From UHGV virus genome UHGV-0196721: a DNA stretch of 45,223 bases; one strand, given 5' to 3'. Made by a program: the position numbers. Below, piece by piece: positions 33,001 through 36,000 of the stretch. Each line of letters starts with the position of its first letter. Within the stretch, counting starts at the first letter, position 1. This stretch comes from a virus.

Positions 33001-36000
33001 ACATATATCAACAAATCTGGCGAACTGAAAACGGCGGAAATTAATGAGCCGCGATTTGAGTGTGATGGCCTGCTTATTGAGGGACAAAGAACGAACTTCT
33101 TCCAGAACAGTACAGACCCTTCGAAGTGGAATAAGTCAACTTCACTGGACGTTACAGAAACAGGCACAGATAGTTTCGGGTTTAATTATGGCCGGTTTGT
33201 CGTACAGGATTCGATTGTTGGTACAAGTAAAGCGCATACCATTATCGGACTGTATTCGAGTACCGGAGGGGTTGATACTTCAGGGGACGAAAAGCATGTA
33301 ACTATATCCTGTCGGGTAAAAAGTGAAGTTGATAATATCGCCGTTCGTATTTTATTTGAACATTATGATGGGGAGGTAAGGACATCAATAGGAGCAGCAA
33401 ACCTGAACCTTACCACCCGCATAATTAGCAAGACAGGTCAGACAAGCCGTGTTACAGCAAGGTCTGTTAAGGATGATGCAACTGGCTGGATATTTTTTGA
33501 GGCTACATTAAAAGCAGATACAACAGAAAATACGGTTGGTGGTTTTGTCCAGTATTCTCCGGATACAGGGCAGATGGTTGCATCAGGGGATTATCTCGAT
33601 GTAACCACTCCACAGATTGAGGCTGGTACAGGCGCATCATCTTTTATTGTTACGGGGACGGCACCGGTAACGCGGGCAAGCGATATGGTTACAGTTCCGA
33701 TTAAGAATAATCTTTATAATCTTCCTTTTACGGTTCTTTGTGAGGTACATAAGAACTGGTATAAAACGCCAAATGCAGCACCGCGTGTTTTTGACACATA
33801 CCGGCATCAGGCAGATGCGGGGATCGTAATGGGGTTTGGTTCATCAGGTGGGTACGACGGTTTTCCGTATTGCGATATAGGTGGTTCAGACCGACGAATA
33901 AATGAAAATGCCGGGCTGGAAAAAATGCTTATTGGTATGCGGGTAAAGTCCGAACGGTCCACATGTGTAGTCAGTAACGGTAAGTTAAGCAGCGAAACTA
34001 AAACCAAATGGGAATATATCCGGAGTACAGCAACCATTCGCATTGGTGGACAAACTACAGCAGGATTACGCCATTTATTTGGGCATGTGAGGAATTTTCG
34101 TCTCTGGCATAAAGAGCTAACAGATGCGCAGCTTGGGGAGGTTGTGGAGTGAGAGATTTCACGTTGCGTTTCAGTGATAAAGCAGATTTCAGGGCATTTC
34201 TCAGGAAACTTAACTGGGAAGAGGACGAAGAGCTGCAGAATGCCGTTCTGGTTGATGAGATTGGTTTTACGTTCAGGGAGACAGATGTTTCTGATGACGG
34301 AGAACCAGAATACACGCGAAACGAAGGGTACTTTGTTAATATCCGTCTTCTTGACGATGGATTTGATGATTCCGTGTTCCGTGAGTGGGTGGTTACACCA
34401 GAGCGCCCGCTCAGGGAGTGGTTTTAAGGATAGCAGATGGATATCACGTCGATACTTCATGCGCTTTGTGCCGTAGCGGTGCAGGTACTGGCTGGTCTTT
34501 TTACCGGAAACTGGGCTTACGGTGCGATAGCCGGTTGTACGTTCTTCATTGCGCGTGAACACACCCAGGCAGAATATCGCTGGATTGAAATGTTTGGGCA
34601 TGGCAAGAGGATTAACATGCCGTGGTGGGGCGGTTTTGATCCGCGCGTGTGGGATGTGGCAAGCCTGATGGATTTTGCTGTGCCGGTGGTGGCGTGTCTG
34701 CTGATCTGGATGTTGATCCGTTAAATATAAAAAGTAAAAAGCCGCAGTAACTTGTCATGACAGGATACTGCGGCTGGCTGGTTAACTTTCGATAGTGCGA
34801 GTATTGAATGATTTCCAGCTGTTACTGATTTTATATAACTGCAGTGGAATTATTCAACACACAGGCAAAACGGAATAAGCTGAGAAAAAAAGCGTGCTTT
34901 CCCAATCTGGGGTAAATCACATCTGAATGACACCTGAAAACAGGTGGTGGCCTCAAGAAGGCTTGGAATATTCTTCTTTAATGTTATGTAATTTATTGAT
35001 TTTTCGTGTACGATTTTAAGACATTTATTCCAAGAAAAATTTTTAACTCTTTGATTTTTCGACTCTGTATCATCGGTCTCGAAAACCGGAGTGGGGGCAA
35101 CTCCACCGGGGGTTCAAATCCCCCTCTCTCCGCCAAAATTCAATCACTTACACATCATTAAGTCAGTGACAAAAATCACACTTGGAATTACTTGGAATAT
35201 TTTCTTGGAATATTTTCAGGTAACGGGACATCAAGTGTCGGTGAAACTTTAACCTTCCTGTCATAGATTAGCACTTGCCCCTCGGTTTTGTGACCAGAGA
35301 AAAGTTGCTTATCCCGGCTGCTTCCTTCATAGTCTGAAATTCCTTTCGCCTTCAGATCATGAAAGGTGAAGTCGGTTAAAATACCTGAAATTTTGCCTGC
35401 GCGATTTCTTGCTTCTACCCACATTTCGTTAAAGCCTTTGTACATATATCGGTTGCCGTATTGATTGCTGATTACATAGGCGGATGTTGGTAACTGTTTT
35501 GCTTTTTCGATCGCCGCCTGTAATCGTGGACTCCATGCTTTTATCTGTTTTTTCCCTGTTTTCCCTTGCTGGATAAAGATCCCGTCGTTTCCAATCTGCT
35601 CCCATTTCAGCGATAACACATCGGAAACCCTCGCTGCACACAGATAGGCAATTTCCATTGCGATAAAAACAGGAAGAGGTGCAACGCTTAATACTGCCTG
35701 GTATTCTTTGTCGGTTACATATCGTTCGCGGTTTTTGGCCTTGAATTTACTTACACCTGCACATGGGTTAGCCTTCACGTACCCTCGCTCATATCCCCAA
35801 CTGTAAACGCGGGACATACTGCTTTTTTCATGGTTGGCTTGCGTTTTACTCTGCCCCCCTCTCTGGTCCATGTATCGACGGATGTGTTCTGGTTTTATGG
35901 AATCTGCCGGCACCTTACCGAATACGGCAAGCAACTTTTTTTGATGTTGCAGATAATCTTTTTGTGTTCTTGGACTGAGGTCACTGTAATAGGCGCTGGC

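What the first reader, a model, noticed from the sequence alone, without database searches (positions are those of the whole stretch)
34149..34724. Two-gene module between the side tail fibre and att in place of a Tfa chaperone
Downstream of stf there is no lambda Tfa-like gene. Instead there is a 92 aa acidic protein whose GTG start overlaps the stf stop, then a 95 aa two-TM membrane protein with a conserved-looking loop HGKRINMPWWGGFDPRVWD, a hairpin and AT-rich DNA to the att core. The first could be a new short fibre chaperone; the second looks like exclusion or defence cargo in the variable region next to att.
Basis: inference. Interest (0 to 1): 0.55.

Follow-up and report, generated by a model that had tools for sequence, protein, structure and literature searches.

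The report
Tail-fibre helper gene plus membrane cargo gene
Two real but uncharacterised phage genes sit after the side tail fibre: the first is a conserved partner of this fibre type in about 190 phage genomes, and the second is a separate, highly conserved small membrane protein carried by temperate phages and some bacterial chromosomes.

Summary
orf92 (34149-34427) starts at a GTG that overlaps the stf stop. orf95 (34437-34724) follows 9 nt later. Next come a hairpin, AT-rich DNA (34.5% GC), the 3' part of tRNA-Ser (attP core) and int. Both genes are under purifying selection, and the window has no Tfa homologue.

They are not one module.

orf92 (phrog_1361) is a fixed partner of one fibre class. 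These are lateral or side fibres that end in a GTA-head-spike-like domain plus a LamG-like domain. orf92 follows such fibres with a 1-4 nt overlap in lambdoid, T5-like, T1-like, Queuovirinae and rV5-like phages. A second fibre gene usually comes next; this window lacks it. orf92 is most likely a fibre assembly factor or adaptor. Its fold and sequence are unrelated to Tfa.

orf95 (phrog_1443) is a three-helix inner-membrane protein that moves independently. It lies beside receptor-binding genes of lambdoid, P22-like, P2-like and HP1-like prophages. It also occurs in non-phage chromosomal loci in Aeromonas, Leclercia and Silvania. Virulent phages with the same fibre module lack it. It has no match to known defence systems, so an exclusion role is plausible but has no direct support.

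Both families are annotated only as hypothetical. Interest is moderate.

The parts
32089..34152 (+). Side tail fibre Stf (687 aa). Residues 1-131 are the prophage tail fibre N-terminal domain. About 131-261 is an Ala/Ser/Thr-rich shaft. 331-530 is a hypervariable domain like the GTA head spike fibre. 531-687 is a LamG-like C-terminal domain ending ...RNFRLWHKELTDAQLGEVVE.
   Evidence: PF08400 E 4e-68. NF048003 GTA_spike_fiber E 4e-19. phrog_1419 and phrog_5939. PDB 6TB9 Rcc01080 E 4.6e-5. Residues 331-530 vary from 32 to 100% identity between loci whose flanks are conserved.
34149..34427 (+). orf92: acidic 92 aa alpha/beta protein. Its GTG start overlaps the stf stop (GTGA). It is the conserved partner of LamG-ended lateral or side fibres (phrog_1361).
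   Evidence: phrog_1361 E 1e-40 over its full length. AF2 pLDDT 86.6. dN/dS 0.38. Synteny in 191 phage records.
34437..34724 (+). orf95: 95 aa inner-membrane protein with three predicted helices. It is a highly conserved accessory gene of temperate phages, with cellular homologues (phrog_1443).
   Evidence: phrog_1443 E 5e-57. AF2 pLDDT 93.8. 562 homologue clusters. Its DNA is in 1906 of 5426 E. coli genomes. dN/dS 0.16.
34740..34775 (.). Hairpin with a 10-bp GC-rich outer stem plus an inner stem. On the minus strand it is followed by UUUUUACUUUUUAU. On the plus strand there is no U run.
   Evidence: The hairpin is conserved together with orf95 in L004 and L080.
34776..35073 (.). AT-rich spacer between the hairpin and the att core
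   Evidence: 34776-35059 is 34.5% GC against 52% for the whole window
35074..35150 (+). 3' part of tRNA-Ser (serU-type) plus a few downstream bases: the attP core
   Evidence: Matches the annotated tRNA-Ser gene in 5416 of 5426 E. coli genomes. Rfam finds a tRNA-like 3' end. ARAGORN calls no complete tRNA here.
35188..36213 (-). Tyrosine integrase
   Evidence: PF00589 and integrase N-terminal and central domains

Best explanation
The two ORFs are separate functional units that happen to sit side by side.

(1) orf92 is the dedicated small partner of one class of lateral or side tail fibre, whose distal end is a GTA-head-spike-like receptor-binding domain followed by a LamG-like domain. orf92 is made by termination-reinitiation at the fibre stop codon, so it appears in step with the fibre. 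It acts on the fibre's C-terminal end, either as a folding and assembly factor or as a small subunit that stays on the fibre. In most related phages such a subunit could provide the docking point for a second, shorter fibre. That second fibre is missing in this phage, so the function that remains here is assembly or capping of Stf. orf92 fills the role Tfa has in lambda but is not related to Tfa.

(2) orf95 is an accessory ('moron'-type) inner-membrane protein. It is transcribed at the tail end of the late fibre operon. Its family also has chromosomal, non-phage members. It does not build the fibre. It acts on the cell envelope through its invariant interfacial motif (H8, Q16, RE-x2-QAEYRW, MPWWGGFD, D79), probably by binding a conserved host membrane component. 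The most likely benefit to a temperate phage is blocking further infection or adsorption, in the manner of superinfection exclusion.

Shown: the anatomy, selection, synteny, distribution and independence of the two genes. Inferred: every biochemical step.
For: orf92:
- It has a full-length match to phrog_1361.
- It occurs in 191 phage records spanning lambdoids, Drexlerviridae, Dhillonvirus, Queuovirinae, T5-like and rV5-like phages.
- Every locus inspected has the order fibre then orf92, with a 1-4 nt overlap.
- Metagenomic relatives found at E-values of 1e-10 to 1e-6 keep the same coupling to proteins ending ...RNLRIWHxALTDxQIxGL.
- 78 of 80 IMG/VR loci have a LamG-type Stf followed by an orf92-family gene. 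This includes a third, 89-aa subtype.
- A confident AF2 model shows a compact alpha/beta domain.
- The downstream second fibre keeps a conserved N-terminal peptide, M[AV]T.TVIP.DI..LK, across phage families. That fits a docking site on the fibre/orf92 end.

orf95:
- Its DNA homology begins exactly at its ribosome-binding site in many genomes.
- It lies behind a P22-like tailspike, P2-like H, HP1-like fibres with a 4-nt overlap and the phiHAP-1 Tfa.
- It is absent from virulent phages carrying the same fibre module. One of them holds a decayed 51-aa remnant.
- Chromosomal copies sit in conserved non-phage synteny in Aeromonas and next to porin, oligopeptidase A, GNAT and PNPase genes elsewhere.
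- Conservation is extreme, with 20 invariant residues across 47 sequences from three proteobacterial classes, and dN/dS is 0.16.
- The window has its own complete lysis cassette elsewhere.
Against: No experiment or co-fold links orf92 physically to Stf.

orf92 types only 41% identical are found behind LamG domains that are 78-81% identical. Any contact must therefore use conserved surfaces or be loose.

For orf95:
- It has no defence-database hit.
- No promoter was detected that would express it in a lysogen.
- The positive-inside count places the conserved loop in the cytoplasm, which argues against direct receptor masking.
- Cellular homologues suggest a physiological rather than anti-phage activity.
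- The trio of fibre, orf92 and orf95, with 4-nt overlaps, recurs in Comamonas, Pantoea and Chelativorans. This argues against full independence of orf95 from the fibre.
Confidence: 0.6

Rival explanations
1. orf92 is specifically the adaptor that attaches a second, distal fibre (fib2, with an S74 self-cleaving C-terminus) to the LamG end of the first fibre, giving a branched lateral fibre.
For: In T5-like, T1-like, Seuratvirus, Nonagvirus and many lambdoid modules orf92 lies between the two fibre genes. The fib2 N-terminal 15 residues are conserved across families. Branched LtfA/LtfB fibres are known in DT57C (PMC10713586).
Against: 36 of 80 IMG/VR loci, phage 21 and the distant locus L009 have fibre plus orf92 and no fib2. 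Even so, orf92 stays intact there, keeps its start overlap and is under purifying selection.
Confidence: 0.2
2. Fibre, orf92 and orf95 form one functional unit in temperate phages. orf95 would be a membrane factor tied to this glycan-binding fibre class. It might be needed for fibre maturation or release at the membrane, or it might give immunity against phages that use the same fibre class.
For: The trio, with 4-nt overlaps, is found in Escherichia, Pantoea, three Comamonas species and Chelativorans. In Chelativorans the order is fibre, orf95, orf92. 78 of 80 close orf95 loci follow this fibre type. All the other partners of orf95 are also fibres or tailspikes.
Against: Virulent phages assemble the same fibre module without orf95. 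orf95 has chromosomal copies with no phage genes nearby. About 40 of 52 species-level loci lack both the fibre and orf92.
Confidence: 0.15
3. orf95 is a lysis-related membrane protein (a holin, antiholin or lysis-timing factor).
For: It is small, has three helices and sits in a late operon. In Comamonas prophages it directly precedes holin-like and endolysin-like genes.
Against: The window has a P21-type holin and a lysozyme at 8446-9965. orf95 has no charged C-terminal tail. It gave no holin Pfam or PHROG hit. It has cellular copies in housekeeping loci.
Confidence: 0.05

Closest known systems
Tail fibre assembly proteins Tfa (lambda), U (Mu) and G (P2); Pfam Caudo_TAP
   Same: A small protein encoded immediately after the fibre gene and expected to act on the fibre's distal end.
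Branched lateral tail fibres LtfA/LtfB of T5-like phage DT57C
   Same: Two fibre proteins are encoded in tandem, and the second hangs on the first. The T5-like, T1-like and Queuovirinae relatives of this module have the same two-fibre layout.
   Different: Here a small third gene (orf92) sits between the two fibre genes, and the first fibre ends in LamG. The passages I read from the DT57C paper mention no such small protein. This window has lost the second fibre.
Head spike fibre Rcc01080 of the Rhodobacter capsulatus gene transfer agent (PDB 6TB9)
   Same: Stf residues about 297-545 align with it (E 4.6e-5; NF048003). This is the hypervariable part of Stf and presumably the receptor-binding part.
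   Different: It is mounted on a lambda-type Stf shaft and followed by a LamG-like domain and by orf92.
Phage morons and exclusion proteins encoded beside receptor-binding genes (lambda lom and bor, Cor of phi80/T1, Llp of T5, HK97 gp15, the P2 Z/fun locus)
   Same: orf95 is a small, non-essential envelope protein encoded at the end of the tail or fibre operon. In P2-like prophages it sits between H and FI, where P2 carries Z/fun (the P2 gene map is from my own knowledge).
   Different: It has no homology to any of them and no lipobox. It is far more conserved, at 55-60% identity between E. coli and Comamonas or Aeromonas copies. It has cellular homologues. No promoter was detected.

Membership tests
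phrog_1361 (unknown function) | Full-length profile match | tested here: met
   E 1.1e-40, residues 1-92 on profile positions 1-92 of 92
phrog_1443 (unknown function) | Full-length profile match | tested here: met
   E 4.6e-57, residues 1-95 on profile positions 1-95 of 97
Tfa / Caudo_TAP tail fibre assembly proteins | Sequence homology to Tfa, U or G | tested here: not met
   No Pfam or NCBIfam hit. tblastn of lambda, ev243 and phiHAP-1 Tfa against the window gave no hit below E = 0.1.
Tfa / Caudo_TAP tail fibre assembly proteins | Tfa-like fold | tested here: not met
Tfa / Caudo_TAP tail fibre assembly proteins | Required for folding or trimerisation of the fibre tip | not testable with these tools
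   Needs co-expression or genetics.
Tail fibre accessory protein (functional class, not a homology family) | Encoded directly after the fibre gene, with the linkage conserved across divergent phages | tested here: met
   A 1-4 nt overlap with the fibre stop in every locus inspected, from lambdoids to rV5-like phages and metagenomic relatives
Known anti-phage defence systems (PADLOC-DB 2.0) | Profile match to a component of a defence system | tested here: not met
   No hit at E up to 1 for either protein
Cor/Llp-type receptor-blocking lipoproteins | Lipoprotein signal peptide with a lipobox cysteine | tested here: not met
   Residues 8-11 are H-A-L-C, which is not a lipobox, and C11 is not conserved in the family
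Holins | Charged C-terminal tail, position in the lysis cassette, match to a holin family | tested here: not met
   The C-terminal tail is 0-9 residues with few charges. The window's holin and lysozyme are at 8446-9965. No holin Pfam or PHROG hit.
Superinfection exclusion proteins (functional class) | Expression protects the cell from infection | not testable with these tools
   Needs plaque, adsorption and DNA-entry assays
Moron (accessory gene of a temperate phage) | Present or absent independently of neighbouring genes, and not needed for virion formation | tested here: met
   Homology starts at the orf95 ribosome-binding site. The gene is found in four phage architectures and in non-phage loci. 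It is absent from virulent phages with the same fibre module.
Moron (accessory gene of a temperate phage) | Own promoter and terminator | tested here: inconclusive
   No + strand promoter-like site from lom to att (a consensus scan only). A hairpin follows the gene but lacks a U run on the + strand.

The most novel reading that the evidence does not exclude
orf92 would be the founding member of a new, widespread class of lateral tail fibre chaperone or adaptor, used by phages of at least five groups, including T5-like and BASEL model phages. orf95 would be a universal small inner-membrane effector, present in about a third of E. coli genomes. Temperate phages would attach it to glycan-targeting receptor-binding genes to shut a conserved envelope step against further infection.
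Probability: 0.3. Interest if true: 0.6.

Novelty: new variant of a known kind. Interest (0 to 1): 0.42.

Why it matters
Fibres of this type (a hypervariable GTA-spike-like domain plus a LamG-like domain) occur in many coliphages used for host-range work and phage engineering. If orf92 is needed to assemble them or to hang a second fibre on them, it must be carried along whenever these receptor-binding modules are swapped. It would also add a chaperone or adaptor family unrelated to Tfa.

orf95 is one of the most common uncharacterised prophage genes in E. coli. It is in 35% of complete genomes, often in several copies. It is conserved across proteobacterial classes and has cellular relatives. 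Identifying its target would explain a very frequent piece of prophage cargo.

Tried and rejected
- Pfam, NCBIfam and PADLOC scans gave nothing for either small protein.
- PDB sequence searches with profiles gave nothing.
- Foldseek against BFVD matched orf92 only to uncharacterised proteins of uncultured Caudovirales.
- The afdb50 library was not available.
- The representative search hit giant PKD-repeat and TPR proteins. These proved to be compositional matches to repeats, not orf92 domains.
- Six literature searches and five papers yielded no characterisation of either family.
- All public names for both proteins are 'hypothetical'.
- I considered a programmed -1 frameshift fusing orf92 to Stf and rejected it. 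There is no slippery heptamer at the junction, and relatives use ATGA-type overlaps with their own start codons.
- I first thought the orf92 subtype tracked the presence or absence of the second fibre. I dropped this because virulent-phage orf92 proteins that have a second fibre are closer to the window type than the lambdoid 93-aa type is.
- The minus-strand 264-aa ORF at 33807-34601 is treated as spurious, because the variation pattern fits the plus-strand frames.

Full report
**What is there.** The window is a lambdoid temperate phage in its attP form. J runs 27791-31270, lom 31338-31937 and stf 32089-34152.
- orf92 starts at GTG 34149, overlapping the stf TGA as GTGA, with GGAGG 8 nt upstream. 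It ends at 34427.
- orf95 starts 9 nt later at 34437, with AAGGA 7 nt upstream, and ends at 34724.
- A hairpin follows at 34740-34775. Then comes a spacer of 34.5% GC against 52% for the window.
- A 77-nt stretch at 35074-35150 matches the annotated tRNA-Ser gene at about 2.04 Mb in 5416 of 5426 E. coli genomes (a tRNA-like 3' end).
- The integrase follows on the minus strand. ARAGORN calls no complete tRNA here, as expected for an attP core.
- No Tfa homologue exists anywhere in the window.
- The lysis cassette (P21-type holin, lysozyme) lies at 8446-9965.

**Both ORFs are genes.** Across related loci, orf92 has dN/dS 0.38 (11 alleles) and orf95 has 0.16 (29 alleles). Variable sites are concentrated at third codon positions. 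orf92 is acidic (pI 4.26). orf95 is hydrophobic (GRAVY 0.64).

**The fibre.**
- Stf has the prophage tail fibre N-terminal domain (PF08400).
- An Ala/Ser/Thr-rich shaft follows.
- Next comes a region matching the 'GTA head spike fibre' domain (NF048003) and the solved RcGTA head spike fibre Rcc01080 (PDB 6TB9, E 4.6e-5).
- The protein ends in a LamG-like domain...RNFRLWHKELTDAQ. A distant relative gives a weak Laminin_G_3 hit.

I compared 87 related loci. Residues 331-530 form the hypervariable cassette, at 32-100% identity, while the flanks stay conserved. This is presumably the receptor-binding part.

**orf92.** It matches phrog_1361 over its full length (E 1e-40). It has no Pfam, NCBIfam, PADLOC or PDB sequence match.

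The informative evidence is comparative. tblastn finds the family in 191 phage records. These include lambdoids such as phage 21, ev243 and mEp460. They also include virulent Drexlerviridae, Dhillonvirus, Queuovirinae, T5-like and rV5-like phages.

In every locus inspected, the gene starts 1-4 nt inside the stop of a lateral or side fibre gene of the phrog_1419/5939 type. A profile search of 1.8 billion representatives found about 90 relatives. Four of the distant ones, looked up on their contigs, show the same overlap with an upstream protein ending ...RNLRIWHxALTDxQIxGL.

Among 80 IMG/VR loci, 78 have this fibre followed by an orf92-family gene. That includes an 89-aa subtype missed by BLAST.

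Most phages have a second fibre gene (fib2) after orf92. fib2 has an S74-type self-cleaving C-terminus. Its N-terminal peptide, M[AV]T.TVIP.DI..LK, is conserved across phage families. The window, phage 21 and 36 of the 80 loci lack fib2.

I conclude that orf92 is a fibre accessory protein acting on the LamG end. Whether it is a transient chaperone or a retained adaptor or cap cannot be decided here. It is analogous to Tfa in position but is not a member of that family.

**orf95.** It matches phrog_1443 (E 5e-57) and nothing in Pfam, NCBIfam, PADLOC or the PDB.

The family is large, with 562 clusters, and strikingly conserved. Twenty residues are invariant in 47 sequences from Enterobacterales, Aeromonas and Comamonas. 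They include H8, Q16, R40-E41, Q44-W49, P62, G65-F67 and D79.

Charge counts are as follows: N-terminus acidic, loop 5.4 K+R, C-tail 0.66 K+R. The positive-inside rule therefore favours a cytoplasmic loop, but the topology is not settled.

Its DNA is in 1906 of 5426 complete E. coli genomes, at a median of 2 copies and up to 8. In many of them homology starts exactly at the orf95 ribosome-binding site.

Contexts outside this fibre type are:
- after a P22-like tailspike (Gally, L080);
- between H and FI of P2-like prophages, after a 75-aa gene and before an invertase;
- overlapping the fibre gene of HP1-like prophages in Leclercia and Aeromonas;
- after the Tfa of Halomonas phage phiHAP-1;
- after a Tail_spike_N protein in Leclercia.

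There are also plainly non-phage loci. One is a conserved Aeromonas position between a pirin gene and an LPS-kinase-like gene with two LpxL-like genes. Others lie next to porin, oligopeptidase A, GNAT or PNPase genes in Leclercia, Silvania and Alphaproteobacteria.

Virulent phages carrying the same fibre, orf92 and fib2 module have no orf95. Phage 6947 and its relatives hold only a 51-aa remnant.

**Are the two genes linked?** Mostly not, as described above. However, the trio of fibre, orf92-like gene and orf95, with 4-nt overlaps, recurs in Pantoea, three Comamonas species and Chelativorans. In Chelativorans the order is fibre, orf95, orf92. This keeps open a functional tie between orf95 and this fibre class, which I give about 0.15.

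**Expression.**
- Terminator-like hairpins flank lom (31289-31308 and 32041-32070).
- No sigma-70-like promoter was found on the + strand between lom and att.
- So stf, orf92 and orf95 look like a late, Q-dependent transcript. That conclusion rests on a consensus scan only.
- In L004 and L080 a small terminator-like hairpin sits between fib2, or its remnant, and orf95.

**Mechanism I commit to.**
- orf92 is translationally coupled to Stf. It assembles, caps or adapts the fibre's LamG end. I put about 0.7 on a fibre-related role, split roughly evenly between chaperone and retained adaptor.
- orf95 is accessory envelope cargo of temperate phages. It acts through a conserved host membrane partner. 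I put about 0.7 on 'accessory, not morphogenetic' and about 0.3-0.35 on exclusion specifically.

**Comparison with known systems.**
- Tfa, U and G: same position, but no homology or fold similarity.
- The DT57C LtfA/LtfB branched fibres: same two-fibre logic in relatives.
- RcGTA head spike fibre: homologous to the variable Stf domain.
- lom, bor, Cor, Llp, gp15 and the P2 Z/fun locus: same kind of genomic niche as orf95, but without homology, without a lipobox, and with much weaker conservation than orf95 shows.

**Novelty.** Both families are already catalogued as PHROGs of unknown function. Every public record calls them hypothetical. I found no paper characterising them. The new points are:
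- the consistent fibre partnership of orf92 across five phage groups;
- the independent, temperate-only and partly cellular distribution of orf95.

This is a new variant of known kinds (a fibre accessory protein and a moron), of moderate interest.

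Noticed in passing
window 34740-34775: On the minus strand the hairpin after orf95 is followed by UUUUUACUUUUUAU. It therefore looks like an intrinsic terminator for leftward transcripts that come from int across attP, analogous to lambda tI/sib. It does not look like a plain late-operon terminator. It travels together with orf95 in other prophages (L004, L080).
   Followed up: partly
window 33079-33678 (Stf residues 331-530): This domain, homologous to the RcGTA head spike fibre Rcc01080, is a hypervariable cassette. It is exchanged independently of the flanking shaft, the LamG domain and orf92, at 32-100% identity among 87 loci.
   Followed up: yes
L134 3526-5590 (Chelativorans sp.): The same three genes occur in an alphaproteobacterial prophage, but in the order fibre, orf95, orf92, with overlapping starts and stops.
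   Followed up: partly
L107 2965-3120 (Escherichia phage 6947; also ST1UNAM, ZCEC08, PBM-2/3): A decayed 51-aa remnant of orf95 (...IPWWGGFDWRAWDLPSLLD) lies right after the S74-type lateral fibre gene of siphoviruses of about 48-73 kb. This looks like a scar of fibre-module exchange with prophages.
   Followed up: partly
L007, L117, L123, L124, L126 (Aeromonas chromosomes): An orf95 homologue sits at a conserved non-phage position, between a pirin gene and a RIO1/Kdo-kinase-like gene with two lipid A acyltransferase-like genes. This may hint at an LPS-related role. It was not tested.
   Followed up: partly
L099-L102 6727-7957 (P2-like E. coli prophages): Between the H fibre gene and FI there is a 75-aa gene, then the orf95 homologue, then a Hin/Cin-type invertase. 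No Tfa/G homologue was seen there.
   Followed up: no
window 5296-5545 and 6520-8373: Three tRNA genes (Met, Arg, Arg) are followed by a 617-aa protein with DUF1737, a sialate O-acetylesterase (SASA) domain and DUF6645. From my own knowledge this is the arrangement seen around the stx position in Stx phages. No toxin gene was looked for.
   Followed up: no
window 31289-31308 and 32041-32070: Terminator-like hairpins flank lom on both sides, which is a typical moron structure. stf, orf92 and orf95 lie downstream of both.
   Followed up: no
window 33300-35200 against the phage collection: About 140 records, many of them Stx-converting phages, match part of this stretch at 90-95% identity, yet only 72 phage records encode orf95. 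I did not determine which segment they share.
   Followed up: no
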